DNA of 64,000 nt. Source: Escherichia phage vB_EcoS_VAH1. Location of the stretch: the sequence record MK373792.1; one strand, 5' to 3'. The translations under genes and the position numbers were made by a program. Shown here piece after piece: positions 24,035 through 37,573 of this stretch; position 1 is the stretch's first letter, and the number at the start of each line of letters is the position of its first letter. The notes under the pieces are model-generated. The model made no database searches, was not told the DNA's origin, and saw only the letters and a list, made by a program, of their open reading frames with translations.

Positions 24035-24041
24035 AAAAATT

Positions 24042-24583: not shown

Positions 24584-24757
24584 AAACTTCCTTAATAGAA
24601 TGGACTTTTAAGTAAGAATGATTAATCCCAAACTCCGCCATTACTTCTTTTTCATCTTTTCCATAATGAGCAATTGATGATTTTGGGGTATTCTTACCTA
24701 AACGTTTGTCACTTACTACTAATCGAAATACTTTCATTTCGAAATCCTCTATTAAAA

Positions 24758-24835
24758 TGGAAGCGGGTGCAGGAATCGAACCTACCTCTTTCTAGCTTAT
24801 GAGACTAGCGATCTCTACCAGAGATCTAACCCGCA
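24758..24835 (-). tRNA. tRNA-Met type (anticodon CAT), 1-72 mismatch
   Basis: Arm CTAGT-CTCATAA-GCTAG, T-loop TTCGATT, CCA encoded. Confidence 0.55.
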
Positions 24836-24841
24836 ATTGTT

Positions 24842-24919
24842 TGGTCTCCGTGGGAGGATTTGAACCCCCGACCCTATCGCCCCAAACGAAACGCTCTGGC
24901 CAAACTGAGCTACACGGAG
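24842..24919 (-). tRNA. tRNA-Pro (anticodon TGG)
   Basis: Perfect acceptor CTCCGTG/CACGGAG, T-arm GGGGG-TTCAAAT-CCTCC, loop TTTGGGG. Confidence 0.55.
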
Positions 24920-25285
24920 AATATTATTTCTTCAACCACAACAAAGATAAGCCCAGCATACTAAAGCCGCTAACTAATCCGATACATTTTTCTTCTATAG
25001 TAAAAGTATCTAGATTAAATGCTGTTATAGCTACGGGCATACACCATAATGCCATAAAAACTTGAGCTATCTTATGTTTCATTTTGCTTTCCTTCTCTTC
25101 ACTTTATAAAATATATTATACAGATAATAAAGCAGAATAGCAAATGAATTTTTAATAAATTTACTTATTGTGTAGGCCACCTGGAGGCTACCAACCCCAC
25201 GGCTGACAAAGACGTTTGCGAGACCTCTCTTAAATGCCAGAATAAACCCGCCGATCTATCGGAACCTACATAATAAGTAAACTTT

Positions 25286-25415
25286 ATAGTGTCATTCTAG
25301 ACAGGACTCGAACCTGCTATCACTTGTGCGGACTTACGAGAACCATTCTTTCACTCGAATCGAACGAGCTTCTGCCCTCGCCAAGCTGGTTTCCCCATCA
25401 ACCACGCTAGAATGT
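25286..25415 (-). other. ~125-nt tRNA-like element with two T-loop-like motifs
   Basis: Terminal 7-bp pairing ATTCTAG/CTAGAAT; T-arm AGCAGG-TTCGAGT-CCTGT; second TTCGATT motif; D-like stem TGGT/ACCA. Confidence 0.3.
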
Positions 25416-25535
25416 TTGATTGTTTTCAGTGCAAGAGTCCGAGTCTTGGACACGACCGCTTCGCAAGTACATAGGCAGCTTATCATGAGTCAGCACTTCC
25501 GAATTGCTAGCTCCGTGTTCTGCACTGAAATTTTA

Positions 25536-25883
25536 TTAGTTTAACCGTAAAGTACTATCTACTTCACCATTAATTGTTCGGCATTCCTCTGGAATTGCTG
25601 GTGTGGCCTTGTATTCCCACCACTCAGCACCATCATATTCCCCACGTTCTAGCCAAGTTCCATCGGCAAACCATACATTACCATAAAGTAATTGTCCACC
25701 ATATCCAGAGTCATATTTAAAGTCTAGGTTATTAAGAAAATCCTCAATATCTTCTTCTGTGTAACCTAAAGGCAATACCCAAACTTTTTTATCTCCATAA
25801 TACCCGAATTCTATTTTAATACATTTAACTTCAGAATTAGTATTTTTTAAGGCAAGTAACAGCTCTTCTTTGGCATTACGCAT
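25536..25883 (-). CDS. hypothetical protein
   Basis: 115-aa ORF. Confidence 0.4.
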   Translation of the reverse strand: MRNAKEELLLALKNTNSEVKCIKIEFGYYGDKKVWVLPLGYTEEDIEDFLNNLDFKYDSGYGGQLLYGNVWFADGTWLERGEYDGAEWWEYKATPAIPEECRTINGEVDSTLRLN

Positions 25884-25908
25884 AGTATATTCTCATACTA
25901 AATTAATT

Positions 25909-25985
25909 TGGCGCGACCGATGGGATTTGAACCCACATTCCCTCCCGTGACAGGGGAGTACCATTACCAAGCCAGCCCCGGTCGC
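25909..25985 (-). tRNA. tRNA-Asp (anticodon GTC)
   Basis: Perfect acceptor GCGACCG/CGGTCGC, arm CTCCC-CTGTCAC-GGGAG, T-loop TTCAAAT. Confidence 0.65.
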
Positions 25986-25994
25986 ATAATTCAT

Positions 25995-26180
25995 TTACTC
26001 AGCTTTGAGTTTTTCAATAGCTGCATTAAGTTCTTTAAGAAACTCTTTTCGTACATTAAGACGATTGAGACTTACTAGTATATCGTGTTTAAGTTCTTCG
26101 ATGTATTTCTTTTCAACTTCAATATTGTTGATAGTGCTATCACGATGAACTTCTAGCTGCGCAATTACATTCTTGGACAT
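25995..26180 (-). CDS. small coiled-coil protein
   Basis: 61-aa ORF. Confidence 0.3.
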   Translation of the reverse strand: MSKNVIAQLEVHRDSTINNIEVEKKYIEELKHDILVSLNRLNVRKEFLKELNAAIEKLKAE

Positions 26181-26282
26181 GCTTGTTTCCTCAGTTATTA
26201 ATGAAAATGGTATCTGTGGCTGAATTCGATGTCAGCAATGATAGCTGGTTGGCTACCGGTTTACTTAACTCTACACAGAATT

Positions 26283-26360
26283 TGGCGGTTCCTGCTGGAT
26301 TTGAACCAGCAACCCTCAACTTAACAAGATGCCGCTCTAACCAATTAGAGCTAAGGAACC
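26283..26360 (-). tRNA. tRNA-Asn (anticodon GTT), tentative
   Basis: Perfect acceptor GGTTCCT/AGGAACC, D-arm GCTC...GAGC, loop TTGTTAA, weak anticodon stem. Confidence 0.5.
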
Positions 26361-26855
26361 ATATAAGTCAGAACTAGAGTTAATACGTTCTAGATATTTA
26401 CTAAGATCTCTAGAATTTATACTAAACCACTCATGCTCTTTTAAATCTTTGAAATACTGGTGAATTAGTTTTTCACCTTTTCGTTTGTCAAACCAAAAAG
26501 ACCAGTGCTCTAACTTATAATCCCTATAAGGGGAATAAGTCTGATATTGAGCTAATCTCTCTTTTGGATTTTGACTCATACCTATTTTATACTGATTTTT
26601 CCATGCAGGATTACTAATACAGTATACAAAACCTTCAGAAATAGGAAGTTTATTTTCCTGCTTAAACTTTATAAAGGAAAGTGCAGCAAGTTTTCTCGAA
26701 TACATAGTATTTGTATTCTTTTTGGTATTACCATTGGTTCCTGAAAGACTTATATATTCTTCCATAAATCTTTGGATTAGTTCTGCGGTTATATAGAAGG
26801 GCTCATTAGTAACAACGCCTTTCTTTACCAAACTATCAAAAACTTTTGTATGCAC
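26337..26855 (-). CDS. GIY-YIG-like (T5orf172/MUG113-type) domain protein
   Basis: GFVYCISNPAWKNQYKIGMS...ERLAQYQTYSP...EWF. Confidence 0.55.
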   Translation of the reverse strand: MHTKVFDSLVKKGVVTNEPFYITAELIQRFMEEYISLSGTNGNTKKNTNTMYSRKLAALSFIKFKQENKLPISEGFVYCISNPAWKNQYKIGMSQNPKERLAQYQTYSPYRDYKLEHWSFWFDKRKGEKLIHQYFKDLKEHEWFSINSRDLSKYLERINSSSDLYGSLALIG

Positions 26856-26876
26856 TACTTCTTTCCTTTAGTAATT

Positions 26877-26952
26877 TGGACGACCGCATGAGATTTGAAC
26901 TCACATAAAAAGGATTTGCAATCCTTCGCCTAAGCCATTCAGCCAACGGTCG
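26877..26952 (-). tRNA. tRNA-Cys (anticodon GCA)
   Basis: Arm AAGGA-TTGCAAA-TCCTT perfect; T-loop TTCAAAT; CCA encoded. Confidence 0.65.
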
Positions 26953-27130
26953 ATTTATCTTGTTTTTCGAGATCTTCAAATTCTAAATCATTGAAGTTCC
27001 CTAGAGTACGGGAGTAGAGCCCGTCTCCTGCGTCATAGCCTGATTTGCCACAATCACACATTTTAAGTTCACGAAGATGTGTAAAAACATGTTCAGAACC
27101 ACAACACTTAAATCTAACTAATCGTTTCAT
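26939..27130 (-). CDS. small Cys-rich protein
   Basis: FKCCGSEH...CDCGKSG. Confidence 0.3.
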   Translation of the reverse strand: MKRLVRFKCCGSEHVFTHLRELKMCDCGKSGYDAGDGLYSRTLGNFNDLEFEDLEKQDKSTVG

Positions 27131-27179
27131 TAGCTTCTCCAGTTCAATTTATGTAATTATTATATAGAACTTTTGGAAA

Positions 27180-27467
27180 CTAAGCAACTACATTTTTTAA
27201 GAATTTGATGCCTTTCTTTTTCTTCTTATATTTCCATGTTAATGGATTCTGTCGGTTATGAACGCTTGAGATCCTTGTCTCGTCAAAGTTCTTCAATATC
27301 ATGTAATCACAGGATAATTGTTCTAGTGGAATGTGATCACCGTCAAAAGCGTATACATAAGGCTGTTGACTAGCACGATAATGATAGACTTTGTTAATTC
27401 TACGTTTCAGCGACTTATCCGTGCAGTAAATAAAGAAGTTTTCAGGATGCATCAGCATCTCCTTCAA
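27180..27467 (-). CDS. hypothetical protein
   Basis: 95-aa ORF. Confidence 0.35.
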   Translation of the reverse strand: MKEMLMHPENFFIYCTDKSLKRRINKVYHYRASQQPYVYAFDGDHIPLEQLSCDYMILKNFDETRISSVHNRQNPLTWKYKKKKKGIKFLKNVVA

Positions 27468-27469
27468 TT

Positions 27470-27544
27470 TGGTGCACCCTGTTCGAATTGAACGAACCTC
27501 TCAAGCTCTTCAGGCAAGCGCTAATCCATCTCAGCTAAAGGTGC
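27470..27544 (-). tRNA. tRNA-Phe (anticodon GAA), tentative
   Basis: Acceptor GCACCTT/AGGGTGC, T-arm GTTCG-TTCAATT-CGAAC, loop CTGAAGA. Confidence 0.45.
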
Positions 27545-27550
27545 AAATTT

Positions 27551-27621
27551 TGGCAGGGGTAAAGGTATTCGAAACCTTTTCATGGGTTTTGGAGGCCCAT
27601 TTGCAACCTATGCGTACCCCA
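27551..27621 (-). tRNA. short tRNA-like element (~71 nt), identity unresolved
   Basis: T-arm AAGGT-TTCGAAT-ACCTT and CCA present; D and anticodon arms atypical. Confidence 0.3.
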
Positions 27622-27630
27622 ATTGTTAGT

Positions 27631-27704
27631 TGGCACACCCACGGAGAATTGAACTCCGATTCTCAGATTGAAATCCTGATGTCCTAGCCATTAGACGATA
27701 GGTG
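27631..27704 (-). tRNA. tRNA-Glu (anticodon TTC)
   Basis: Arm TCAGG-ATTTCAA-TCTGA, T-arm CGGAG-TTCAATT-CTCCG. Confidence 0.55.
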
Positions 27705-27713
27705 CATTAAATT

Positions 27714-27801
27714 TGGTGGGCGTTAATGGAGTCGAACCACTCGAGTCGCAATGACCAGGGATTTACAATCCCCTCCGCTACCACTTACGGAATAAACGCC
27801 C
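27714..27801 (-). tRNA. tRNA-Tyr (anticodon GTA), type II
   Basis: Perfect acceptor GGGCGTT/AACGCCC, arm GGGGA-TTGTAAA-TCCCT, long variable arm, T-loop TTCGACT. Confidence 0.6.
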
Positions 27802-27929
27802 ATATTTAGAAGCATTCAAATACTTGTTTAAACACTTTTAAATATGTTTCCAAATTAGATAACTATTATACCAGGTTTTAATGCACTGAGCAAGTCAAAT
27901 TTTGAAGAACTTGCTCAGTGCTGTATTAG

Positions 27930-28205
27930 TTAGTCGAACTTAGGAGTGACAGTTAAGGAGAACGGAAGTTCGAAAACTTCTTCGCCCTCATTACTAACGG
28001 TAACTACACGACCTTTAAGTTCAGACATTAAAATATCAATATCAGCTCTTGCATCTGGAGCCATGCCAGCTTCAATACATTTAGCTTTAACTTCCGGTAA
28101 AAGCTCTACGTTATAGAGATAGAGCCACTCAATCTCACCTTCCCAGTCTTCCCAGGATTTGCAGATTGCACTTTCAATACCAGTTGCTACAACACGATTT
28201 TGCAT
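27930..28205 (-). CDS. hypothetical acidic protein
   Basis: 91-aa ORF. Confidence 0.4.
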   Translation of the reverse strand: MQNRVVATGIESAICKSWEDWEGEIEWLYLYNVELLPEVKAKCIEAGMAPDARADIDILMSELKGRVVTVSNEGEEVFELPFSLTVTPKFD

Positions 28206-28295
28206 TAGTTAATTCCTTCATCAATTTATATAACTATTATATCAGAAATTTAAAGTAAAAGGCAAGTACATTTTTAAAAATTCTGTTTGGAGGAG

Positions 28296-28502
28296 CTAAA
28301 CTCCGGATTCTTCGGCCAAGTCTAGACTAATAAGAGTTATAGCCATAATTGCTGCACCGTGTTCTTTTTCTCCGGTGTTTTTAGCCGAGTCTATAATACC
28401 CTTAATCTGTTCGTAATAACTTTTTACTTCTTGTTCAATGCCTGCCTCAGCTATCATGCCTTTAGCCATGAATCGTTGCATGGTAATTTCAGGATTAGCC
28501 AT
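28296..28502 (-). CDS. hypothetical small protein
   Basis: 68-aa ORF. Confidence 0.35.
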   Translation of the reverse strand: MANPEITMQRFMAKGMIAEAGIEQEVKSYYEQIKGIIDSAKNTGEKEHGAAIMAITLISLDLAEESGV

Positions 28503-28691
28503 GTTGTTTCTCCAGTTTCATTTTTAATAGTTTACAGATGAAATCAACGTCTTCATCTGTGCCTAAGTCTCTATCCTCAAGAGTCGCCTTGAAGTTTTTC
28601 GTCAATTCCATGAGGATGACTTCCCTAGAACGACGTGTTGGCGGAGGTGGATGTCTATACATCTTATTTCCTTAATTTGGTAGGGATTATA

Positions 28692-29375
28692 TCATCTACT
28701 TTTCTTAATACTTTTAGGATCTTTCCCTGTTAGGGACTTATACCTTTTCCTTAATCCAGTATCAGATAATCCTAGTTCTTTGGAGGCACGAATCCAGGAA
28801 TATTTAGATACCCAGTACTCTATTTGCTCCACAGTAATATCTGGATTTATAGTTATCTCTTTAGGAGTACATGATTTACAGTGTGTTGCTCTTGAACTAA
28901 TTTCGCAGTGACAAATAGCACACGTATTTACAGCTCTTTCTGTATACCTGCCAATATTTTTGCCTGCATGAGTAGGTGTTAGTGCATGGCAATTTGGACA
29001 TAGGAGGGCTAAGTTATCCCATTCATTATTATAGTGATTTCCATCCTTGTGTTCGAGTTCTAAAGGAATTGGTTTGTCTAACCAACTTTCTAAGCCACAA
29101 CTCTCACACTTATGTGGTTTTAGCCCCTCGTTAAGAATTTTATTCTTTAGTTTATAGGAAGAAATAGGGCTGCCGTTATATAAATACTCTGTTGCAGACT
29201 TATATTTATTATCATACTGCCTATTCGCAGGAATAACTACTATTCCTAGTTTTCCTAAATATGCTTCCAAAGTGTTCGAGGAGCAGGATAGCATTCTTGC
29301 TATCTCTGCTTTAGATTTTCCCTGAGCTATCCACTGAGCTATTTCTTCCTTTCTATCTAGTATATCAGTTCTCAT
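28692..29375 (-). CDS. HNH homing endonuclease with N-terminal HTH and shared C-terminal module
   Basis: HKCESCG...LELEHKDGNHYNNEWDNLALLCPNCH; C-terminus near-identical to 21164..21745. Confidence 0.7.
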   Translation of the reverse strand: MRTDILDRKEEIAQWIAQGKSKAEIARMLSCSSNTLEAYLGKLGIVVIPANRQYDNKYKSATEYLYNGSPISSYKLKNKILNEGLKPHKCESCGLESWLDKPIPLELEHKDGNHYNNEWDNLALLCPNCHALTPTHAGKNIGRYTERAVNTCAICHCEISSRATHCKSCTPKEITINPDITVEQIEYWVSKYSWIRASKELGLSDTGLRKRYKSLTGKDPKSIKKSR

Positions 29376-29398
29376 AGTTTATGACTTTCTAATTAAGC

Positions 29399-29476
29399 TG
29401 GTGGCTCCCCGAGGATTCGAACCTACGTACCTTCCAGTTATGAGCTGGGTGCTCATACCATATGAGCTTGAGAACC
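29399..29476 (-). tRNA. tRNA-Met type (anticodon CAT); third CAT tRNA, could be the Ile2 (lysidine) species
   Basis: D-arm GCTC...GAGC, arm CCCAG-CTCATAA-CTGG, T-arm GTAGG-TTCGAAT-CCTCG. Confidence 0.55.
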
Positions 29477-29482
29477 AGAATT

Positions 29483-29571
29483 TGGCGGAAGAAGTGGGAA
29501 TCGAACCCACAAGGCTATATTTCAAACCGACAGATTAGCAATCTGCTGCAATACCGTTATGCTATTCTTCC
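29483..29571 (-). tRNA. tRNA-Ser (anticodon GCT), type II
   Basis: Perfect acceptor GGAAGAA/TTCTTCC, arm GCAGA-TTGCTAA-TCTGT, long variable arm. Confidence 0.6.
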
Positions 29572-29592
29572 GAATTTATAAGATATATTATA

Positions 29593-30162
29593 TTAGAAAT
29601 TTAGCTTCATGGCAAGAAAATTTTTCAAGTTTTCGGTAGACATCTCATCCACATCTATAGGAGAAACAAACCCATTTAATTGTCTAGCAAACTTTTCACC
29701 AGCAGGATCATTATCCCCAACAGCTACCAATTTAAAAGGTAGTAATTTCAATTGCTTTAACAATGCTTTTCCGGGGGAAGAACCCAACATTGCCAGGGCT
29801 GGATAACCAGCGTTATGTAACGCAACTGCCTTAAATACAGATTCAGCAATCAATACTACTTTTTCATCTCCATTGAGAGTTTCTAGTCCCCATACACACT
29901 GTGTAGTAGAATAAGTAAAATATCTAGCTTCAAGGGGGCACTTACCATGACCTTTTGGAGCAGAAGGATTATAAGTCTGATAGCCTCTCAACATCCCAGA
30001 GAAGTCATACAATGGGACTGTTAGCCATCCTTCCGGGCTTAACCAGCAATGATATTTATCTGTATCAAACCCTCTAGATAAGAGATGTTCTGTTAGTTCA
30101 TCAACAGTCATACTAGATTCCTCTCTCAAATTTATAAATATATTATACAGAGAATTTAGCAT
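29593..30162 (-). CDS. stand-alone Toprim-domain protein
   Basis: VVLIAESVFKAVALHNAGYPALAMLGS...KLVAVGDNDPAGEKFA matches DnaG-type Toprim; no zinc finger or helicase part. Confidence 0.5.
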   Translation of the reverse strand: MLNSLYNIFINLREESSMTVDELTEHLLSRGFDTDKYHCWLSPEGWLTVPLYDFSGMLRGYQTYNPSAPKGHGKCPLEARYFTYSTTQCVWGLETLNGDEKVVLIAESVFKAVALHNAGYPALAMLGSSPGKALLKQLKLLPFKLVAVGDNDPAGEKFARQLNGFVSPIDVDEMSTENLKNFLAMKLNF

Positions 30163-30280
30163 TCAAGCAATTGAATTTTTTAACTTTTTAGAGGAAAATC
30201 ACAGGATGCTTAAGGGTAGCAGGTAAGTGGTCAGGACCGAAATTTGTGACCCCACTAAAAATCTGGGGGCAATTTTTAAA

Positions 30281-30320
30281 GACCCCTTGACATTTTCGCT
30301 GGGGTAGTGTAAAGTATATG
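30281..30320 (+). promoter_or_regulatory. sigma70-like promoter for the plus-strand island
   Basis: TTGACA at ~30281, ~17-18 nt spacer, TGn + TAAAGT; AGGAGG RBS before ATG at 30368. Confidence 0.5.
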
Positions 30321-30367
30321 TTATGGATGAGTGATCAAAGAGACACACATTTTCTATATACTAGGAG

Positions 30368-31360
30368 GTGTCAAAAATGACAGAAGAAGTAGCTAAGAGT
30401 CCTGAGACCGTCGCTAGCGTTGCAGCAGAACTGCACCGTCACGAGGAATCAGATAAGAAAAAGTGGGAGAAGGTCAGAGCCTACGAAGAAAAACATCGTG
30501 AACACGATGATGAAGAAGATGACGATGAGCATTGTCATAAATATGGAAAACATAAAATGCAAGAACCAGTAAACGTATTTACTAGTGGCTTCCCTGGCCT
30601 ACTTGGTGGTTACCCAGCAAACGCAAGTGCTTTCGGTGGCGAAGGTATGGGACTATTCGGAGCTATCCTAATCGGTGCTCTATTAACAGGCGGGTTCGGT
30701 GGTTTCGGTGGATTCGGTGGACGTGGTGTAGTTGGTGATGGTACCGCAGTTGATGCAGTACTTCAGAACCAAGATACCGCTAGTATTCTAGCAGCTATTA
30801 ACACTACTCGTACAGAAGCTAACCAGGGTACTGGAGCTGTTTTAAGCGCAGTTAACAATGGTTTTAGCCAGACATCCCAAAACCAGAGCCGTGATACTCA
30901 GTCTGTACTAACTACGATCTATGGTACAGGTGCTAATCTGTCTAATCAGATCTGCCAGGAAACTCGCAACGTTATTCAGGGTCAGTTCGATCTTTCTCGC
31001 CAGATTGATCAATCTTTCGCAGCTAACCAGATAGCTCGTGCACAAGATAAGTTTGATTCTGCACAGATCGCTTTCCAGCAGACTTTACAAACTAATAACC
31101 AGTTTGCCGCTGTTCAGGCTCAGATGTGTGCTAACCAGAACTCTCTGGAACGTCAGATCGCTGAATGTTGCTGTGAACTTCAGACTGCGATCGCTGGTGT
31201 AACTACTGCGCGTATTCAGGATGAGTTAGATGCATGTCGCCTACGTGAAGCAATCGCTGCGGGTAACGGTGCTAACGGTCAGGTAATTAATCAAATCGCT
31301 GTAAGTCTTGGTGCTATCACTCAGACTCTGGCTGGTCTGCAGGCTAAACTGCCGGCTTAA
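30368..31360 (+). CDS. acidic/His-rich N-domain + glycine-zipper TM segment + Gln/Asn/Ala-rich helical C-domain protein; function unknown
   Basis: DDEEDDDEH; GLFGAILIGALLTGGFGGFGGFGG; Q/N/T-rich tail with CCC cluster; codon usage unlike neighbours. Confidence 0.55.
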   Translation: MSKMTEEVAKSPETVASVAAELHRHEESDKKKWEKVRAYEEKHREHDDEEDDDEHCHKYGKHKMQEPVNVFTSGFPGLLGGYPANASAFGGEGMGLFGAILIGALLTGGFGGFGGFGGRGVVGDGTAVDAVLQNQDTASILAAINTTRTEANQGTGAVLSAVNNGFSQTSQNQSRDTQSVLTTIYGTGANLSNQICQETRNVIQGQFDLSRQIDQSFAANQIARAQDKFDSAQIAFQQTLQTNNQFAAVQAQMCANQNSLERQIAECCCELQTAIAGVTTARIQDELDACRLREAIAAGNGANGQVINQIAVSLGAITQTLAGLQAKLPA

Positions 31361-31381
31361 TATTAAGGGGAGGAGCCCATT

Positions 31382-31798
31382 ATGAGTAAATATGGTTTTG
31401 TAAATAACGGACTTAATCAAAGTATGGGCTCCCAGCAGCCCATTCCGGGTCTGGATAACCCCTACTTACAACAATTGCAACAGCGTTTAGCAGAAGCGCA
31501 ACAGATGCAGCAACAACTCCAGCAAAACCCTGGAAGTGTGAGTCCTATGCAAATGATGCAGCAAATGAGCGGGCAGTCGCAAATGCCTCAACAAATGCAG
31601 CAACAGGTGCCGCAGCAGCAAGCTCAGCAGCAAACCCAACAACCGCAGGTTTCTGCGGAAGGACAGGCAGTACTAGCCCTTTTCGAAGACTTCGCAAAGA
31701 CAGAGGATGGTAAGCAGCTTGTATCACTTATGGGTAAGTTTAATAGCTTCTGCCAAAGCCAGGTTGCAAAAGCTCAAAATAGTGGTAATAACTCCTAA
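31382..31798 (+). CDS. Gln/Met-rich low-complexity (prion-like) protein
   Basis: QQLQQRLAEAQQMQQQLQQNP...MQMMQQMSGQSQMPQQMQQQVPQQQAQQQTQQ; GGAGG RBS. Confidence 0.5.
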   Translation: MSKYGFVNNGLNQSMGSQQPIPGLDNPYLQQLQQRLAEAQQMQQQLQQNPGSVSPMQMMQQMSGQSQMPQQMQQQVPQQQAQQQTQQPQVSAEGQAVLALFEDFAKTEDGKQLVSLMGKFNSFCQSQVAKAQNSGNNS

Positions 31799-31807
31799 GG
31801 AGGAATT

Positions 31808-32002
31808 ATGTGTTGCAGAAAATCTGTTTCGTGCTGCCCAATGCCTGTAGCACGTTGTTGCTCTCCAGCAATGTTTACGCAAATACCGGCGTTCAATCCG
31901 TTTGCCTTTAAGCCTACTCTTATCCTGCCCCCTAGAGTAGATTTTCAGTCAAGATTGGCCTCCCGTATGGGTGGTTGCTGTAATAAGAGTATATGGTTCT
32001 GA
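31808..32002 (+). CDS. small Cys-rich protein (CC pairs)
   Basis: MCCRKSVSCCPMPVARCCSP...GGCCNK; AGGAGG RBS. Confidence 0.35.
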   Translation: MCCRKSVSCCPMPVARCCSPAMFTQIPAFNPFAFKPTLILPPRVDFQSRLASRMGGCCNKSIWF

Positions 32003-32018
32003 AGAACCAAACAATAAA

Positions 32019-32053
32019 GCCCCTAAGTCTTTCGACTAGGGGCTTTTCTTTTA
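32019..32053 (+). terminator. rho-independent terminator closing the plus-strand island
   Basis: GCCCCTAAGTC...GACTAGGGGC hairpin followed by TTTTCTTTT. Confidence 0.6.
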
Positions 32054-32060
32054 TCTTAAA

Positions 32061-32097
32061 TACAGAAAAGCCCTGCGCTCTCCAGGAAACGCAGGGC
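32061..32097 (-). terminator. rho-independent terminator for the SPFH gene (convergent)
   Basis: GCCCTGCG...CGCAGGGC 8-bp stem with T-run on the minus strand. Confidence 0.6.
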
Positions 32098-32122
32098 TTA
32101 TTTCAGATGTTACATGCGGGTA

Positions 32123-33070
32123 TTATTTATTACGCATATCCATAATCATTTGGCCATCATAGCCAGTGCCAACCACAGTCTGCGGTACACCACCTTGGTA
32201 TTTCTGAGCACGAATCATTTCAACTTCCAGTTGCTTCCAGCGAATCATCTCAGGAGTAATGGTACGTTGCAACGCGGCGTTAGCTTCAGCTTCTTTCTTA
32301 GCTGCGTACAGTTTGGCATCTGCGTCACGCTCATTGGCAATAGCTTGGTTATTACGAGCTTCGCGATCTGCTTCTGCTTGTTTAACCTTCTGCTGTGCTT
32401 CTTGTTCAACACGAGCCAGTTCAGCTTTCGCAGCATTAACTTGCTCTTCACGAACTTTGGTATTCTGTACCTGTTCCATGATTACCGGTGGCAAAGTAAT
32501 ATCCTGAAGGAATACCTGCTTAACTGTATAACCATATGGGCGTGCATACTCTTCAACTTCCTGTTGAATTGCAGTTTGCAATTGAGCCTGAATTTTAGCA
32601 TCAAACAAATCTTGTGCTTTAGGTACAGACTTACCAAACTCACGAATAGTAGACAGTAATTTTTCAGTTACATATTTATCTAGTGCTTGATCCTGGGTGC
32701 CTGCGTTAATACGGTTAATCGGTGCCTTAGAACCATCAAATTGTAACATAACAGTCAGGTCAACAGTGGATTTAAACTTATCTTGGCTAGGAACCTGAAG
32801 TTTATCTAATTTTACAGCAATATCTTTTGTACTAAAAGTATCGAAAGATGCAAATGGGTTTACAAGATGGAAACCAGGTAATACTGGGTTAGGATCTACT
32901 TTACCTAGAAATGTTTGGGTTTTAACCGTACCATCAGAAACAATAGTATATGAATTAAAAGCTAGGATTAAACCTGCTAAACCAACTACAGCACCAATAC
33001 CCCAACGTTTAATAGTGCGAATTACTTTTTGCTCAGAAGTCAGTTCTTTCATATTTTTAGTATTAAACAT
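32123..33070 (-). CDS. SPFH/Band-7 (prohibitin/stomatin/HflKC-like) membrane protein
   Basis: N-terminal TM (WGIGAVVGLAGLILAF), SPFH-like core, long Ala/Glu/Gln coiled-coil tail. Confidence 0.7.
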   Translation of the reverse strand: MFNTKNMKELTSEQKVIRTIKRWGIGAVVGLAGLILAFNSYTIVSDGTVKTQTFLGKVDPNPVLPGFHLVNPFASFDTFSTKDIAVKLDKLQVPSQDKFKSTVDLTVMLQFDGSKAPINRINAGTQDQALDKYVTEKLLSTIREFGKSVPKAQDLFDAKIQAQLQTAIQQEVEEYARPYGYTVKQVFLQDITLPPVIMEQVQNTKVREEQVNAAKAELARVEQEAQQKVKQAEADREARNNQAIANERDADAKLYAAKKEAEANAALQRTITPEMIRWKQLEVEMIRAQKYQGGVPQTVVGTGYDGQMIMDMRNK

Positions 33071-33104
33071 ATATTTCCTTTGTTTTAGTTACAGTTAATA
33101 AAAT

Positions 33105-33179
33105 TGGCCGAGGTGACAGGATTCGAACCTGCATAAAGGAATTTAGAAGACTCCTGCCTCTCCCTTAGACTACACCCCG
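33105..33179 (-). tRNA. tRNA-Arg (anticodon TCT)
   Basis: Acceptor CGGGGTG/CACCTCG, arm GGAGT-CTTCTAA-ATTCC, T-arm GCAGG-TTCGAAT-CCTGT. Confidence 0.55.
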
Positions 33180-33669
33180 TTTAAGTATTTTTAAGAACTC
33201 TCGTAAAAACTCTTAAAAATACAGACGATACCGGGAGAGTCATAAGTCTCACTCATTAAGTATTTCAAGACAAAATACAGTAACGTCTATTATTTTCCAG
33301 TTTAAGTCAGGGTGACTTAGTGGTTATGTCCTGCGGTATATTGAGGACTCGGTTAGGCTTTGGGGTCATGACTTCCCGCCTTTTGCTGCTACTCAACAGG
33401 AGTTATCGCGAATTACCTGTGCTATTGTGCACCATTAGTGACATCTCTCATGTCAGCATTTCCCACTTTGTGGATAGCTTGAAAAACTACTCCGATATGG
33501 AGAAAGAACTTCACTATCCTAGAATACCTTCTAAAGTTCTTCTTTAGCCTGGACATAGTTAAATCGTAATAAAACTATTCAGCAGACTGGTTGGTTAGTC
33601 TGGAACCAACTACCGCGTGGTTTAGGCAGTGCGCAACTAACCTCGGAAGCTTTTACGTTAAAAGCATCA

Positions 33670-33745
33670 GTTATCCAGTTCTTACCGACCGTAGGATTCG
33701 AACCTACATCTTCCACCAGTTACGGCTTGATAATACCAATTATAC
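33670..33745 (-). tRNA. tRNA-like element, identity unresolved
   Basis: T-arm GTAGG-TTCGAAT-CCTAC; acceptor GCCGTCC/GGTCGGT with one mismatch; no clean anticodon arm; no CCA. Confidence 0.3.
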
Positions 33746-34029
33746 TAGGACGGCAGTGTTACTACATAAGTGATTTCCACACCCCACTATCAGTAAATTA
33801 GAGAAGAGTTTAGGGGAGAGGTTTCAGACGCCTCATTTTACACGTTCTAGCCACTAACCGGGATTGCCGCCCCCTGTGTACTAGTTTTACAACTAACCCA
33901 CCGACTCTATTCAACGAATCTTAGTGCTCGACGCATCTTACATTAAGACAAGTTCAGCGTAATCGGCTCGCTGTTCCCTAATTTATGAATATATTATACA
34001 GAATTTAAAGGCATTTAGCAAATAAATTT

Positions 34030-34473
34030 TTAATTAAATTCGCCAGCAATCTGAGCAGCAGTACCACCATCATAACGCCCAGGAAATTCTTCCTTAATCG
34101 CTTTCATCAGCATACCTTTTGTAATTCCAGGGTTTAGCTTAACTAATTCTGCAAAGTATTTACGAATCTCAGTATCAGATAACTGAGGAGGCAGATACTC
34201 CTGCAACCACTTATTTAGAATGTATTCATACTGAGCGGACTGCAAGCTATAACTATCAAGATCTTGACCATGAAGTTTAGCTTTCATCTGGTTAATGCTT
34301 TTTAGTTGAGCTTTGAGATAAGACACAAATTGTTCAGAAGTGATGAAATCTTTATCAATACGCTGAAGATCCCCGATTATGGTCTGATAGCTTTTAGCGA
34401 CTTCTTTATCAGAACCATTAAACTTAGAATCCTGCAAAGCTCTACGCAAAACATCTAAAATATTCTCTTCCAT
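34030..34473 (-). CDS. GatB/YqeY-domain protein
   Basis: LRRALQDSKFNG...ILNKWLQEYLPPQLSDTEIRKYFAELV...GITKGMLMKAIKEEFPGRYDG follows YqeY pattern. Confidence 0.55.
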   Translation of the reverse strand: MEENILDVLRRALQDSKFNGSDKEVAKSYQTIIGDLQRIDKDFITSEQFVSYLKAQLKSINQMKAKLHGQDLDSYSLQSAQYEYILNKWLQEYLPPQLSDTEIRKYFAELVKLNPGITKGMLMKAIKEEFPGRYDGGTAAQIAGEFN

Positions 34474-34711
34474 TATTTCATTCCTAACGCTTGGTTAAAA
34501 GATTGTTCCGTCATAACTGCTGAGACTTTGGCGAAATCAAACTTTTTAGGGTTCGTAGTGATCTCAGCAACGTTAGAAGTTTTAACAGTTTTCGTAGTAC
34601 GAATACCGCGAGTGTTAACACCAATAATTACAACTGATTTCATATTTCGCTTCCTCTCATTAATTTATGGAAGTATTATACGGAAATTTAAGTATTTAAG
34701 CAAGTAAATTT

Positions 34712-35179
34712 TTAAGTTTTAGTGACAACAGGTTTATAAAACGTATGTCCCTTAATCTTAGTTGTTTTCTTAAACTTCTTTGTCCAGTAAGGTTTATCTT
34801 TACCACTATGGAAGTATAGTGCTCCATATGTAGGATCTTGTGGTAAATCAACGTAGTATATCACTCTAGCTAAATTCTTAGCGGTTTGCCAAGCCTCATC
34901 AGTTTTATCAACTTTTGGTCTCTTAGATACCCAAGAGAACTGGTTAGACTGATATACTACTTTACAGTAGGAATCTGGGAATTTACCGGAGTTTACACGG
35001 TTTTTAGTAACGTGTGCAATCGCCGTCATTCCCTTTATGCCCTCACCACGACTTTCGAAATAGATATTTTTAGCAATGCAATCTATTTCTTTTGCATCGT
35101 GCGATGCCTGACTACTAAAGCTGAAGGTAAGGGCAGCTACTAAAAGCAAAGCTGCCTTCATTCTTTTTACTCCTGCCAA
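34712..35179 (-). CDS. secreted cell-wall hydrolase (SleB/Hydrolase_2-like)
   Basis: Signal peptide; IAKNIYFESRGEG...AIAHVTKNRVNSGKFPDSYCKVVYQSNQFSW. Confidence 0.6.
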   Translation of the reverse strand: MAGVKRMKAALLLVAALTFSFSSQASHDAKEIDCIAKNIYFESRGEGIKGMTAIAHVTKNRVNSGKFPDSYCKVVYQSNQFSWVSKRPKVDKTDEAWQTAKNLARVIYYVDLPQDPTYGALYFHSGKDKPYWTKKFKKTTKIKGHTFYKPVVTKT

Positions 35180-35484
35180 TCATATTCAACACGATTGGGA
35201 TTTTCTTTATACCCTAAGTCAAGCAAATCATTACGCATATTTTGCTTAGCTACTGGGTTCGAGGTTACTAGTACCACTTTCTTTGGTCTCTGCCCAAATT
35301 CTAAGAGTAAGCGAAGAATTTGATAACCTTCCATACCATCTACAGCCAAGTCATTATCCATATAAACGAAATGGCCTGTGGTATCAGTTTTATTCAGAAA
35401 CTCTACAGCGGCTTCTGGGGTTCGAATGATAATGTCCATTCCGTGAAGATTACGCACATCATCAATCAAAATATGAAAAGTCAT
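35167..35484 (-). CDS. hypothetical protein with receiver (CheY-like) fold features
   Basis: ILIDDV, YMDNDL...GMEGYQILRLL, VVLVTS pattern; weak. Confidence 0.3.
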   Translation of the reverse strand: MTFHILIDDVRNLHGMDIIIRTPEAAVEFLNKTDTTGHFVYMDNDLAVDGMEGYQILRLLLEFGQRPKKVVLVTSNPVAKQNMRNDLLDLGYKENPNRVEYDWQE

Positions 35485-35926
35485 AATAGCCTCGTTTCAT
35501 CAATTTAAAAATATATTATACAGATAACTTAGTAAATTAGCAAATACATTTTTAAATTGTGAAACTAGTAAACCGATAAACAGCCTAGAGGCGCCACAGG
35601 CCATATCTTACGAGCCATGTACCTTTGATCTAGGGTTTGAATCATCAACGAATACTTTGCATCTTTTAGCTTTAGAAGTTTAGAAGTTTGAGTTCTTTAA
35701 ACTTTTCAGCTTTCATACTTAAATGTTGATCTTTGAAGTTGTGTCGGTAATATCAACGACGCTTTGTTTTTACGTGTCAGATTAAGTGTCTGATGTAATA
35801 AACATAATCTCCAATAGATTATACTTTATAGTATGGTCAGCGGTCTTATTTAACCTCGTATTTCAACCGCTGCTGCGAGGTAAGATGCTTGGGCTTTCGT
35901 CTACCGATTTACTAGCTTTTAAATTA

Positions 35927-36565
35927 TTACTCTACTTCAATGAAGGTAGAGGCGTTAGACTCGGACAGAACAAAGTCAACATTTGTTGCAAAGTCCTGGT
36001 ATTCCTCGTCATGCTGCTTAATCAGCTTTTCCAGTTCCAGCGGATCAATCAAGAATGGAGTATTCTTGAGTTCCAGCAGGTTGAGCTGCATTTTAACTTC
36101 ATCTTCGGAAGTTTTCTTATCGCGGGTAGCCATGCTATCCTGCAAACGCTCATATTTAGCATCAAACTGTGCTTTCTGCGTATTAAACTTAACCGTAGCG
36201 GCATGGAACTGCTTACGCATGTTAGCCAGCAGTTGGGCTTTAAGTTCCATAGAACGCTTAGCTTCAATTGCTTCCGCAACAGTCATCTTACGAGAGCCAA
36301 TCTCAACGATTGTTTCAGCATTGCTTTTAATCAGAGCAGCTTTGATACGATCACGCTGGGACATCATATCCAGGAGAGATTGGAAATCTGCCTTAATACG
36401 AGCGGACAGATCGTCTACTTCGATTGCAGCGCCAACTACAACCTTATTTTTATCCTTACCTTCACCAACAGCGATCAGAAGCTGTTGTTCAGTAGCTTTA
36501 CGGATTTTAGCTTCCAGAGATTTGATAGTTGCCAGAGCGCGAGTTTTAGAAATACGAGTAGTCAT
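35927..36565 (-). CDS. hypothetical Lys/Glu-rich helical protein
   Basis: 212-aa ORF; antisense plus-strand ORFs here are low-complexity. Confidence 0.45.
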   Translation of the reverse strand: MTTRISKTRALATIKSLEAKIRKATEQQLLIAVGEGKDKNKVVVGAAIEVDDLSARIKADFQSLLDMMSQRDRIKAALIKSNAETIVEIGSRKMTVAEAIEAKRSMELKAQLLANMRKQFHAATVKFNTQKAQFDAKYERLQDSMATRDKKTSEDEVKMQLNLLELKNTPFLIDPLELEKLIKQHDEEYQDFATNVDFVLSESNASTFIEVE

Positions 36566-36618
36566 TATTTGCTTCCTTATATGAAGTTTGAGATTTGAAT
36601 TTGTTTAAACTTGGTTTA

Positions 36619-36871: not shown

Positions 36872-37573
36872 TCAAATTTTCATTTTTTCGATCATAGCTG
36901 CAACACAATAGCTTTCAACTAAGGCATCAAATGCAGGATCATGCTTAACCGGATAGATCCCATAACGAATAGTGTCCATCTTCTCCATTTTAGCTATTGC
37001 CCAGCTAATACCTTCGGTCTCTAGAGCCTTATAACTGTATCCAGCTTGCATCCAGAGATTACGAAGAGATCGAACATTACCCAAATTCCAGAATTTCCAC
37101 GGAACTACCTCTTCATTGGTTCCAGCATGGAACGTGTTTGCAGAGTAGATAGTCATATCAAACTCTGGACCATTGCCATAATACAAAGCATTTTCGCCTA
37201 GAGCCAACTCCATAATATTTTGAGCCATAGAGAAGGCAGCATAGTTAGAGCCGAGCTTATTAGTACAGTGATGTTTACCGTCTTGAAAAGCAATCAGCTT
37301 TGGATTGCATTCCCTCATAGCTTCCATAATATGTAGAGCTGATGGACTATTTTTAGCTTGATCCATCCAGAATGCTAGAGTAGATGCCGTAACTTTAGCT
37401 CCAGAATTAAGCTGATCTTGTACATCCAAAATAACAAACACTAGACCAGGATCTTTATCAATTCCGTGCATAGCCACAAAAGCGAAAGAAGGCATTACGA
37501 TATGAGTAGTACCACAATCTCCTGGAGTTCCTAAAGATTCAATATCTAGCATACCAAATGGTTTTACTTTCAT
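36872..37573 (-). CDS. DEDDh-family 3'-5' exonuclease (DnaQ/DexA-like)
   Basis: MLDIESLG (D-x-E) near N-terminus and YPVKHDPAFDAL (H-x4-D) near C-terminus. Confidence 0.55.
   Translation of the reverse strand: MKVKPFGMLDIESLGTPGDCGTTHIVMPSFAFVAMHGIDKDPGLVFVILDVQDQLNSGAKVTASTLAFWMDQAKNSPSALHIMEAMRECNPKLIAFQDGKHHCTNKLGSNYAAFSMAQNIMELALGENALYYGNGPEFDMTIYSANTFHAGTNEEVVPWKFWNLGNVRSLRNLWMQAGYSYKALETEGISWAIAKMEKMDTIRYGIYPVKHDPAFDALVESYCVAAMIEKMKI

What the first reader, a model, noticed from the sequence alone, without database searches (positions are those of the whole stretch)
34030..35179. GatB/YqeY-domain protein and a second, secreted cell-wall hydrolase beside the tRNA cluster
A GatB/YqeY-like protein (34030..34473), a family linked to tRNA-dependent amidotransferases, sits at the edge of the tRNA cluster. 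Next to it a signal-peptide SleB-type hydrolase (34712..35179) is a second peptidoglycan enzyme in addition to the M15 endolysin, possibly for entry or release.
Basis: partly seen in the sequence, partly recalled or inferred. Interest (0 to 1): 0.4.

Follow-up and report, generated by a model that had tools for sequence, protein, structure and literature searches.

The report
Known T5 YqeY and SleB-type genes
These are two conserved, already-annotated early genes of T5-like phages: a small non-enzymatic YqeY-fold protein beside the phage's tRNA genes, and an exported SleB-type cell-wall hydrolase that is extra to the normal lysis enzyme.

Summary
The window is a T5-like phage (Tequintavirus, 99% identical to Salmonella phage oldekolle). 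Both ORFs are real, lie on the minus strand and are orthologues of T5.081 and T5.083.

**YqeY-like protein (34030..34473).**
- It has no GatB catalytic domain, so the database label "tRNA amidotransferase" is wrong.

**SleB-type hydrolase.**
- It is a single Hydrolase_2 domain (89 bits) with the catalytic ESRGE glutamate and a cleavable Sec signal peptide.
- It has two invariant cysteines that Bacillus SleB lacks.
- The true start is ATG 35161, not TTG 35179.
- It is not a SleB equivalog.
- It lies 22.6 kb from the holin and M15 endolysin pair.

**Context.** The two genes sit in separate T5-type early transcription units.

**Synteny.** The order Hydrolase_2, then YqeY, then a tRNA cluster starting with tRNA-Arg is kept in three Demerecviridae genera examined.

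**Interpretation.** A role in cell entry is unlikely. Function remains untested. The genes are already annotated in hundreds of genomes and mentioned in papers.

The parts
35515..35543 (-). T5-type early promoter (TTGCTA, 17 nt, TATAAT) driving the cREC_REC and SleB-type genes
   Evidence: Promoter scan. It is near-identical to the annotated T5 promoter upstream of T5.084.
35167..35484 (-). cREC_REC protein (105 aa), the T5.084 orthologue and first gene of the hydrolase transcription unit
   Evidence: Pfam PF20274 at 56.8 bits, E 3.8e-15. phrog_1479. Its stop codon lies 5 nt before the hydrolase ATG.
34712..35161 (-). Exported SleB-type (Hydrolase_2) peptidoglycan hydrolase, 149-aa precursor, the T5.083 orthologue
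   Evidence: Pfam PF07486 at 89 bits. Bacillus SleB catalytic domains 4f55 and 4fet at E 4e-8 and 1.5e-7. Invariant residues E36, E40, C28 and C66.
35105..35161 (-). Signal peptide MKAALLLVAALTFSFSSQA, with predicted cleavage SQA|SH
   Evidence: Hydrophobic window with Kyte-Doolittle score 2.69, positive n-region and an AXA-type site. The same layout is found in 24 of 24 homologues despite sequence drift. This is a heuristic; SignalP was not available.
35054..35056 (-). Codon of the predicted catalytic glutamate E36 (motif FESRGE)
   Evidence: It aligns with the ESRGE motif of B. cereus SleB and is invariant in the family. That this glutamate is the catalytic residue comes from the literature as cited in PMC7807722.
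34675..34703 (-). T5-type early promoter (TTGCTT, 17 nt, TATAAT), homologue of T5 promoter P-D/E 33, driving the DUF7616 and YqeY-like genes
   Evidence: Alignment with the annotated T5 promoter.
34473..34643 (-). DUF7616 protein (56 aa, pI 10.4), the T5.082 orthologue. Its stop codon overlaps the YqeY start (TAATG).
   Evidence: Pfam PF24592 at 113 bits. The overlap is read from the sequence. No fold match was found.
34030..34473 (-). Stand-alone YqeY-fold protein (147 aa), the T5.081 orthologue
34066..34080 (-). Conserved C-terminal motif G132-R-Y-D-G136, which aligns with KGKADG of B. subtilis YqeY
   Evidence: G132, Y134 and G136 are invariant and D135 nearly invariant in the phage family.
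33993..34021 (-). T5-type promoter (homologue of T5 P16-17) directly after the YqeY stop codon, driving the RNAX homologue and tRNA-Arg
33180..33992 (-). Homologue of the T5 stable RNA 'RNAX', including a tRNA-like element at 33683..33754
   Evidence: Alignment to the T5 rnaX feature. Rfam tRNA model at 35.5 bits. ARAGORN does not call it.
33105..33179 (-). tRNA-Arg (TCT), the first gene of the 21-gene tRNA cluster (19834..33179)
   Evidence: ARAGORN. Rfam at 49.3 bits.
11677..12090 (-). Canonical endolysin, an M15 L-alanyl-D-glutamate peptidase next to the holin gene. Included for comparison.
   Evidence: Pfam Peptidase_M15_4. PDB 2mxz at E 6.6e-91. Holin adjacency is shown in relatives.

Best explanation
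The locus holds two independent early transcription units of a T5-like phage, with genes homologous to T5.084-T5.083 and T5.082-T5.081.

**Unit 1: promoter, cREC_REC, SleB-type hydrolase.**
- Shown: the hydrolase is a single Hydrolase_2 catalytic domain with the conserved catalytic glutamate.
- Inferred: it is made with a cleavable Sec signal peptide and exported to the periplasm. There it probably forms a disulfide between its two invariant cysteines.
- Inferred: it cuts glycan strands of the host sacculus in the manner of a lytic transglycosylase.
- Inferred: it acts from the periplasmic side, independently of the holin, as an accessory wall-weakening or remodelling enzyme.
- It is not the main endolysin, which is the holin-linked M15 peptidase 22.6 kb away. 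It is not a virion entry enzyme.

**Unit 2: promoter, DUF7616, YqeY-like protein.**
- Shown: this is a stand-alone, non-catalytic two-domain helical YqeY protein, a class that E. coli lacks.
- Inferred: it is translated in step with the small basic DUF7616 protein.
- Inferred, and the weakest step: it binds tRNA through its conserved C-terminal domain, as the homologous tails of GatB and Deinococcus GlnRS do. It would act as an accessory factor for the phage's own tRNA set (folding, processing, charging or protection), whose genes start immediately downstream.
- It does not amidate anything.
For: **Identity of the phage and the orthologues.** The region is 99.2% identical to oldekolle. The T5 map carries named promoters and the RNAX feature. 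The three window promoters align with the T5 promoters.

**YqeY-like protein.**
- The AlphaFold model has pLDDT 89.
- The family profile matches 1ng6 over its full length at E 0.0012.
- The profile finds 871 mostly 130-155-aa proteins in 1.84 billion representatives. Of 40 sampled, 34 are Pfam YqeY.
- Only a YqeY domain is found in 147 aa.
- The YqeY domain raises tRNA affinity in Deinococcus GlnRS (PMC1865053). The GatB tail is needed for tRNA binding (PMC2811023).
- The most conserved stretch of the phage family (M123 to G136) aligns with the MG.IM..KGKADG segment of YqeY-C.

**Linkage of the YqeY gene to tRNA genes.**
- In the window, YqeY is followed by a promoter, RNAX and tRNA-Arg.
- Proteus phage PM135 has YqeY, then 1.2 kb, then tRNA-Arg and 13 more tRNAs.
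- Providencia phage PSTCR5 has YqeY about 2 kb before tRNA-Arg and its cluster.
- In Vibrio phage Gary, YqeY lies inside the cluster between tRNA-Val and tRNA-Trp.

**Hydrolase.**
- Pfam gives 89 bits. SleB structures 4f55 and 4fet match with ESRGE aligned.
- A signal peptide is present in all 24 homologues. Two cysteines are invariant, and Bacillus SleB has none at those positions.
- The mature protein has pI 9.7.
- It is far from the holin and M15 pair.
- Other large coliphages also carry a Hydrolase_2 protein in addition to a canonical endolysin (PMC10793346, PMC12031403, PMC11180984).
Against: **No experiments.** No experimental work on either protein was found in the paper library.

**YqeY-like protein.**
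- The single sequence is below the Pfam cut-off (25.4 against 27).
- The protein is mildly acidic (pI 5.5), as are its relatives (median 5.95). This is not typical of a general RNA binder.
- In Deinococcus the YqeY domain worked only in cis (PMC1865053).
- A YqeY-fold protein (Aim41) serves as a structural subunit of complex I (PMC12487887), so the fold is not tied to tRNA.
- The linkage to tRNA genes may be inherited gene order within one phage family. In an rV5-like phage the YqeY gene has no tRNA within 6 kb.

**Hydrolase.**
- Bacillus SleB needs muramic-delta-lactam, which E. coli walls lack (established knowledge). Activity on ordinary peptidoglycan is therefore assumed, not shown.
- The signal peptide was judged by hand rules, not by a trained predictor.
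- The hydrolases of PM135 and PSTCR5 have a hydrophobic N-terminus but no positive n-region.
- The proposed disulfide is not modelled.
Confidence: 0.6

Rival explanations
1. The SleB-type protein is a true Sec-exported endolysin used for release. It accumulates in the periplasm and is unleashed when the holin collapses the membrane potential, like Lys44 of Oenococcus phage fOg44 or the SAR endolysins. It would work redundantly with, or instead of, the M15 peptidase.
For: It has a signal peptide and a conserved catalytic glutamate. RefSeq and PHROGs label it 'endolysin'. It is conserved in essentially all T5-like genomes: 449 records match the region, against 445 for the lysis cassette.
Against: It is 22.6 kb from the holin and M15 pair and in a different transcription unit. 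T5-like phages already have a complete holin and endolysin set, with spanins annotated. Nothing is known that would keep an exported enzyme inactive. Other large phages also carry a Hydrolase_2 protein as a second, non-cassette enzyme (PMC10793346).
Confidence: 0.2
2. The YqeY-like protein has nothing to do with tRNA. It is a protein-binding adaptor, for example acting on the ribosome or bS21, or forming a complex with the basic DUF7616 protein. This would echo the bacterial rpsU-yqeY gene pair and the structural role of Aim41.
For: Its start is translationally coupled to the stop of a pI-10.4, 56-aa protein. Bacterial yqeY is co-transcribed and co-regulated with rpsU (PMC13374519). Aim41 is a complex I subunit (PMC12487887). 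YqeY proteins are acidic.
Confidence: 0.25
3. The YqeY-like protein takes part in tRNA-dependent amidation (Glu-tRNA-Gln to Gln-tRNA-Gln, or Asp-tRNA-Asn to Asn-tRNA-Asn), as the database name 'tRNA amidotransferase' implies.
For: It is homologous to the GatB tail. The phage encodes tRNA-Gln (two genes), tRNA-Asn, tRNA-Glu and tRNA-Asp.
Against: It has no GatB catalytic (cradle) domain and is only 147 aa. Its best structural matches are stand-alone YqeY proteins. It lacks the extra helix and the KXGKXK motif of GatB tails (PMC2811023). From established knowledge, the hosts use GlnRS and AsnRS directly and have no GatCAB.
Confidence: 0.02
4. The SleB-type hydrolase is a virion-carried enzyme that opens the wall during DNA entry.
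For: Many phages carry muralytic domains in the virion.
Against: It has a cleavable signal peptide, is a small single domain, and lies behind an early promoter in the early region away from the structural genes. From established knowledge, T5 entry muralytic activity resides in tail protein pb2. The limited AKFV33 virion proteomics found only four major proteins, so it is not informative.
Confidence: 0.03

Closest known systems
Phage T5 genes T5.081, T5.082, T5.083 and T5.084, with promoters P-D/E 33 and P16-17 and RNAX (NC_005859)
   Same: Gene order, gene sizes, promoters and the downstream RNAX and tRNA-Arg are the same. The window hydrolase is 99.3% identical to that of an evolved T5 derivative, T5_ev219.
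   Different: The YqeY-like protein belongs to the 147-aa variant. Other T5-like phages carry a 144-aa form that is only 46-62% identical. The RNAX homologue has a 166-nt insertion and a deletion of about 87 nt relative to T5.
Stand-alone bacterial YqeY proteins (PF09424; B. subtilis 1ng6, C. jejuni 8xje, V. parahaemolyticus 8xjg)
   Different: Sequence identity is only 10-15%, and the single sequence is just below the Pfam cut-off. It is encoded by a virus of hosts that lack yqeY (PMC13374519). Its neighbour is a tRNA cluster rather than rpsU.
YqeY-like tail of GatB/GatE and the C-terminal domain of Deinococcus GlnRS
   Same: The helical tail domain is homologous. This is the only context in which the domain's function, tRNA binding, has been measured (PMC2811023, PMC1865053).
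   Different: It is free-standing rather than fused to an enzyme. It has no catalytic domain, no extra helix and no Lys-rich KXGKXK motif.
Catalytic domain of Bacillus SleB/CwlJ spore cortex lytic transglycosylases (PF07486; 4f55, 4fet)
   Same: The domain is shared and the ESRGE catalytic motif aligns.
   Different: It has no N-terminal peptidoglycan-binding domain. It scores 50 bits against the 236.5-bit cut-off of the SleB equivalog model. It has a Sec signal and two invariant cysteines that Bacillus SleB lacks. The host wall has no muramic-delta-lactam (established knowledge).
Second Hydrolase_2 'lytic proteins' of other large virulent coliphages (for example Phapecoctavirus iGC_PHA_EC001 and vB_EcoM_LNA4)
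   Same: A Hydrolase_2 protein is present in addition to a canonical endolysin (PMC10793346, PMC12031403). tblastn hits at 35-41% identity were found in 1273 phage records.
   Different: They are only distantly related. Some have longer N-terminal regions, with the domain at residues 70-181 in LNA4.
Exported endolysins (Lys44 of phage fOg44; SAR endolysins P1 Lyz and R21). This comparison is from my own knowledge.
   Same: It is a muralytic enzyme with an N-terminal export signal, so it reaches the wall without a holin pore.
   Different: Those enzymes are the phage's main endolysin and sit in the lysis cassette. This one is an extra enzyme far from the cassette. Its signal looks like an ordinary cleavable type I signal (13-residue hydrophobic core and an AXA site), not a SAR domain.

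Membership tests
Stand-alone YqeY proteins (PF09424) | Significant, full-length, colinear sequence similarity to YqeY proteins | tested here: met
   The family profile matches 1ng6 at residues 11-139 against 9-142, E 0.0012. The profile retrieves 871 proteins, and 34 of 40 sampled are Pfam YqeY, best E 3.5e-27. Caveat: the single window sequence scores 25.4 bits, just under the Pfam cut-off of 27, and only over residues 90-142. Relatives in Vibrio phage Gary and an rV5-like phage pass at 37.2 and 33.8 bits.
Stand-alone YqeY proteins (PF09424) | Two-domain all-helical fold of about 145 residues | tested here: met
   [not shown]
Stand-alone YqeY proteins (PF09424) | Conserved C-terminal G-[KR]-x-D-G loop between the last two helices | tested here: met
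   GRYDG (residues 132-136) aligns with GKADG of 1ng6. G132, Y134 and G136 are invariant and D135 is nearly invariant in the phage family.
Stand-alone YqeY proteins (PF09424) | tRNA binding. This is shown only for the fused homologues; the function of free YqeY is unknown. | not testable with these tools
   It needs gel-shift or RIP-seq experiments. The literature basis is PMC1865053 and PMC2811023.
GatB subunit of tRNA-dependent amidotransferase | N-terminal catalytic (cradle) domain | tested here: not met
   The protein is 147 aa in total. Pfam finds only the YqeY domain and NCBIfam finds nothing.
GatB subunit of tRNA-dependent amidotransferase | Extra helix and Lys-rich KXGKXK motif in the tail domain (PMC2811023) | tested here: not met
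   The C-terminal domain of the model has three helices (100-113, 119-129, 136-145), as in YqeY-C. No KXGKXK motif is present in the sequence.
GatB subunit of tRNA-dependent amidotransferase | GatA and GatC partners encoded or available in the host | not tested
   The window was not searched systematically. None is annotated in the T5 region examined. The absence of GatCAB from enterobacteria is from established knowledge.
Hydrolase_2 / SleB-CwlJ catalytic domain (PF07486) | Domain match above the curated cut-off | tested here: met
   89 bits against a cut-off of 27, covering profile positions 1-100 of 100.
Hydrolase_2 / SleB-CwlJ catalytic domain (PF07486) | Catalytic glutamate in the E-[SA]-R-G-E motif | tested here: met
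   FESRGE aligns with GESRGE of 4f55 and 4fet. E36 and E40 are invariant in 24 homologues.
Hydrolase_2 / SleB-CwlJ catalytic domain (PF07486) | Lytic transglycosylase chemistry on peptidoglycan | not testable with these tools
   It needs muropeptide analysis of digested sacculi.
Spore cortex-lytic enzyme SleB proper (TIGR02869 equivalog) | Full-length match that includes the N-terminal peptidoglycan-binding domain | tested here: not met
   50.4 bits against a cut-off of 236.5. Only profile positions 79-201 match.
Canonical holin-dependent phage endolysin | Cytoplasmic protein encoded next to the holin and spanin genes | tested here: not met
   It has a signal peptide. It lies 22.6 kb from the holin and M15 pair at about 11.7-12.7 kb, in another transcription unit.
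Virion-associated (entry) lysin | Domain of, or co-expressed with, structural proteins, and without an export signal | tested here: not met
   It is a 15-kDa single domain with a cleavable signal, behind an early promoter and among early genes. Sensitive virion proteomics was not available.

The most novel reading that the evidence does not exclude
The phage YqeY-fold protein is a dedicated cofactor of the phage's own tRNA set. Expressed early from a promoter directly upstream of the RNAX and tRNA transcription unit, it would bind the tRNA elbow or D-loop. It would either promote maturation or charging of phage tRNAs by host enzymes, or shield them from host tRNA-cleaving defences. That would give the first function for the widespread, unexplained stand-alone YqeY family. 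It would also add a protein component to the phage tRNA counter-defence story. A weaker add-on is that the conserved Hydrolase_2 and YqeY gene adjacency reflects a functional link.
Probability: 0.2. Interest if true: 0.55.

Novelty: already known. Interest (0 to 1): 0.2.

Why it matters
As it stands, the finding matters little. Both genes have been annotated in T5 (NC_005859) and in roughly 450 related genomes. The two-hydrolase situation has been remarked on in print (PMC3326045, PMC5519627, PMC11180984).

There are two practical points:
1. The common labels are misleading and should not be propagated. These are 'tRNA amidotransferase', 'recombination related exonuclease' and 'carbon-nitrogen ligase' for the YqeY protein, and 'endolysin' or 'spore cortex-lytic enzyme precursor' for the exported hydrolase.
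2. Both proteins are cheap experimental targets in a classic model phage. A secreted second wall hydrolase bears on how lysis is organised in large virulent phages. A tRNA-cluster-linked YqeY could shed light on a protein family whose function is still unknown in bacteria and mitochondria.

Tried and rejected

2. **cREC_REC and Hydrolase_2 as a general gene pair.** cREC_REC homologues occur only in T5-like and some large Vibrio phages. Hydrolase_2 is found in 1273 records of many phage groups. There is no general linkage.

3. **The 'histidyl tRNA synthetase' annotated next to YqeY in rV5-like phage J-01.** It has no Pfam support, and no tRNA lies within 6 kb. It was not used as evidence.

4. 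**Searches of IMG/VR for distant YqeY relatives.**
   - Three single-protein queries found nothing.

5. **Literature searches for T5.081 to T5.084** found nothing relevant. The C. jejuni and V. parahaemolyticus YqeY structure paper was not in the library. A 2026 PNAS paper on toxic T5 products did not mention these genes.

6. **Plus-strand ORFs overlapping the locus** (34306..34458, 34528..34707, 34886..35143, 35786..36598) have no PHROG family. They are treated as mechanical ORFs.

7. **The split holin as a reason why this phage might depend on the exported hydrolase.**
   - The window's holin lacks one T of a T5 run.
   - That allele is absent from IMG/VR.
   - The dNMP kinase region also carries a 2-nt length deficit and a split ORF.
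   - Assembly indel errors are therefore the likelier cause. The idea was dropped.

Full report
**What the window is.** The stretch 33000-36000 is 99.2% identical to Salmonella phage oldekolle and 98.8-99% identical to many other Tequintavirus genomes. In all, 449 phage records match it. The gene map is that of phage T5 itself. The finding covers the orthologues of T5.081 (YqeY-like), T5.082, T5.083 (SleB-type) and, just outside it, T5.084. The named T5 promoters lie between them, and the stable RNA 'RNAX' and tRNA-Arg follow.

**Checking the observation.**
- Both ORFs are present on the minus strand.
- The YqeY-like ORF is exactly 34030..34473.
- The hydrolase ORF as given (34712..35179) is the longest mechanical ORF from a TTG. 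The likely start is ATG 35161, for four reasons:
  - It has an AGGAG Shine-Dalgarno sequence six bases upstream.
  - The upstream gene ends at 35167.
  - The T5 and oldekolle orthologues are annotated as 450 nt.
  - All homologues align from the MKAAL position.
- Plus-strand ORFs across the locus have no family support.
- ARAGORN finds 21 tRNA genes between 19834 and 33179, all on the minus strand. The YqeY gene therefore sits 850 nt upstream, in the transcriptional sense, of the first of them, tRNA-Arg(TCT).
It is essentially identical to the solved T5 L-alanyl-D-glutamate peptidase (2mxz, E 6.6e-91).

**The YqeY-like protein.**
- On its own the sequence gives only a sub-threshold Pfam YqeY hit. 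It scores 25.4 bits against a cut-off of 27, over residues 90-142. It does give a strong hit to phrog_1460.
- I collected 51 homologues. Most of those with a source name come from T5-like phage genomes or carry a Salmonella enterica label. I aligned 23 of them.
- The profile of that alignment matches B. subtilis YqeY (1ng6) colinearly over its whole length at E 0.0012.
- An AlphaFold model built on the alignment is confident (pLDDT 89) and consists of eight helices.
- The profile scanned against 1.84 billion representative proteins finds 871 hits. Nearly all are 130-155 aa and match end to end. Of 40 sampled, 34 are Pfam YqeY.
- The most conserved part of the phage family (M123, I126, K127, G132, Y134, D135, G136) aligns with the 'MGAIM..KGKADG' segment of YqeY-C. 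This corresponds to the helix-loop-helix that forms the conserved tRNA D-loop pocket in the GatB tail (PMC2811023). The mapping is an inference from the alignment and was not modelled.

**What the YqeY-like protein is not.**
- It has no GatB catalytic domain. [quoted passage not shown]
- The RefSeq and PHROG name 'tRNA amidotransferase' is therefore unsupported. So are the GenBank names 'recombination related exonuclease' and 'carbon-nitrogen ligase'.
- E. coli lacks yqeY (PMC13374519). From established knowledge, enterobacteria use GlnRS and AsnRS directly.
- The only measured activity of the domain is raising tRNA affinity. In Deinococcus GlnRS this works only in cis (PMC1865053). In GatB the tail is needed for tRNA binding (PMC2811023).
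- Two caveats apply to any tRNA role. The protein and its relatives are mildly acidic (pI 5.5; median 5.95). The fold also occurs as a structural subunit of mitochondrial complex I (PMC12487887).

**Transcription units.**
- Three sites share the classic T5 early promoter layout: an A-rich upstream block, TTGCT(A/T), 17 nt, TATAAT, then CATAAATT. They align with the annotated T5 promoters.
- The first, at 35543..35515, drives cREC_REC and, 5 nt later, the hydrolase.
- The second, at 34703..34675, is the homologue of P-D/E 33. It drives DUF7616 and the YqeY gene, whose start overlaps the DUF7616 stop codon (TAATG).
- The third, at 34021..33993, is the homologue of P16-17 and lies directly after the YqeY stop codon. 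It drives the RNAX homologue and tRNA-Arg.
- No terminator-like site separates the units on the minus strand, so read-through is possible.
- The two genes of the finding are therefore neighbours but belong to different units.

**Synteny across the phage family.**
- In Proteus phage PM135 (Novosibvirus; YqeY 31% identical) the order is Rv2179c-like exonuclease, Hydrolase_2 (60.8 bits), an AAA ATPase, YqeY, a 1.2-kb gap, then tRNA-Arg(TCT) and 13 more tRNAs.
- In Providencia phage PSTCR5 (Priunavirus) a Hydrolase_2 gene (61.4 bits) is followed after one base by YqeY. tRNA-Arg and the cluster begin about 2 kb further on.
- In Vibrio phage Gary (Thalassavirus) the YqeY gene (Pfam 37.2 bits) lies inside the tRNA cluster, between tRNA-Val and tRNA-Trp.
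- In an unrelated rV5-like myovirus a YqeY gene (33.8 bits) has no tRNA within 6 kb.
- The tRNA linkage is thus consistent within Demerecviridae. Much of it may be inherited gene order, so I give it moderate weight only.

**The SleB-type hydrolase.**
- Pfam Hydrolase_2 matches over the whole profile at 89 bits.
- The catalytic domains of B. cereus and B. anthracis SleB match at E 4e-8 and 1.5e-7, with FESRGE aligned to GESRGE.
- E36 and E40 are invariant across 24 diverse homologues.
- It is not an SleB orthologue. The equivalog model scores 50 bits against a cut-off of 236.5, and only the catalytic part matches.
- Every homologue keeps an N-terminal n-h-c region with an AXA-type site although the sequence drifts. 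Examples are SQA|SH here and SHA|T, AYA|T, VQA|Q, AIA|S and VLA|D elsewhere. Each has two cysteines at the aligned invariant positions, 38-39 residues apart, and a few carry additional cysteines.
- Bacillus SleB has no cysteine at either position.
- A conserved cleavable signal together with a conserved cysteine pair is what one expects of a periplasmic, disulfide-bonded protein. This is an inference, because no trained signal-peptide predictor or structural model was available.
- The PM135 and PSTCR5 versions keep the hydrophobic N-terminus and the cysteines but lack a positively charged n-region.
- tblastn finds relatives in 1273 phage records of many genera.
- Several papers note that large virulent coliphages carry a Hydrolase_2 protein in addition to a canonical endolysin (PMC10793346, PMC12031403). 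For T5-like Salmonella phages, one paper notes that the M15 enzyme sits by the holin while the SleB-domain enzyme is far from it, and that which one is used is an open question (PMC11180984). It was listed earlier for AKFV33 and phiLLS (PMC3326045, PMC5519627).

**How it most likely works.**
- For the hydrolase:
  - The identity of the catalytic domain is shown.
  - Export is strongly suggested.
  - Action on the host sacculus from the periplasm, independent of the holin, follows from those two points.
  - An accessory or remodelling role, rather than that of the main endolysin, follows from its position and from the presence of a holin-linked M15 endolysin. Relatives have the full set, with spanins annotated nearby.
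  - A role in entry is unlikely.
- For the YqeY protein:
  - The fold and the absence of catalysis are shown.
  - tRNA binding in support of the phage tRNA set is an inference from homology and gene position. I put it at roughly 40%.
  - A protein-adaptor role is the main rival.
- I found no experiment on either protein.

**Novelty and verdict.** However, the genes are long-annotated members of known families in one of the classic model phages. The added value here is the correction of names and of the start codon, the operon structure, and the family-wide synteny. Interest is low (0.2). The most novel reading still open is that the YqeY protein is a cofactor of the phage tRNAs, at a probability of about 0.2.

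**Side observations.**
- The holin gene beside the M15 endolysin is split by loss of one T in a run of five. That allele is absent from IMG/VR, while the intact one is present.
- The dNMP kinase region is also 2 nt short and split. These look like assembly indels rather than biology.
- The RNAX homologue contains a tRNA-like element that Rfam scores above threshold but ARAGORN does not call. It also differs from T5 by a 166-nt insertion and a deletion of about 87 nt.

Noticed in passing
window 12087..12796 (minus strand); T run at 12477..12480: The holin gene upstream of the M15 endolysin is split into two ORFs by loss of one T from a run of five, relative to phage Bf23. This creates a premature TAG at 12475..12473. 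The four-T allele has no match in IMG/VR, while the five-T allele has 4 matches. It is probably a homopolymer sequencing error, but if real the holin would be truncated after its membrane segment.
   Followed up: yes
window 13450..14300 (minus strand): The dNMP kinase region is 2 nt shorter than in all best-matching relatives. It appears as two overlapping ORFs in different frames (13510..14031 and 13854..14261). This is a second sign of small indel errors in this assembly.
   Followed up: partly
window 33180..33992 (minus strand), element at 33683..33754: This is the homologue of the T5 stable RNA 'RNAX' of unknown function, behind a P16-17-type promoter. It contains a tRNA-like element (Rfam tRNA 35.5 bits, above the gathering score). 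The acceptor and T arms are good but the anticodon arm is poor, and ARAGORN does not call it. Relative to T5 the region has a 166-nt insertion near its 5' end and a deletion of about 87 nt.
   Followed up: partly
window 35167..35484 (minus strand): The gene directly upstream of the hydrolase, in the same transcription unit, is a cREC_REC domain protein (T5.084 orthologue). Iyer and colleagues predict this family to be a cyclic-phosphate-processing phosphoesterase linked to RNA repair and NAD-centred conflict systems (PMC7824862). Homologues occur only in T5-like and some large Vibrio phages.
   Followed up: partly
L003 (Proteus phage PM135) 5712..7423; L011 (Providencia phage PSTCR5) 6562..7435: The Hydrolase_2 gene and the YqeY gene stay neighbours in distant Demerecviridae genera at about 30-40% protein identity. 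They are separated by an AAA ATPase in PM135 and are directly adjacent (one-base gap) in PSTCR5, while the genes between them differ. This may be inherited gene order or a functional link.
   Followed up: partly
[not shown]
   Followed up: yes
window 35927..36565 and 36872..37573 (minus strand): The 212-aa protein labelled 'tail fiber protein' by PHROG and RefSeq lies in the early region and has no significant Pfam hit, so the label looks like a propagated error. The next gene is an Rv2179c-like 3'-5' exoribonuclease domain protein that is variously annotated as 'metallopeptidase' or 'exonuclease'.
   Followed up: no
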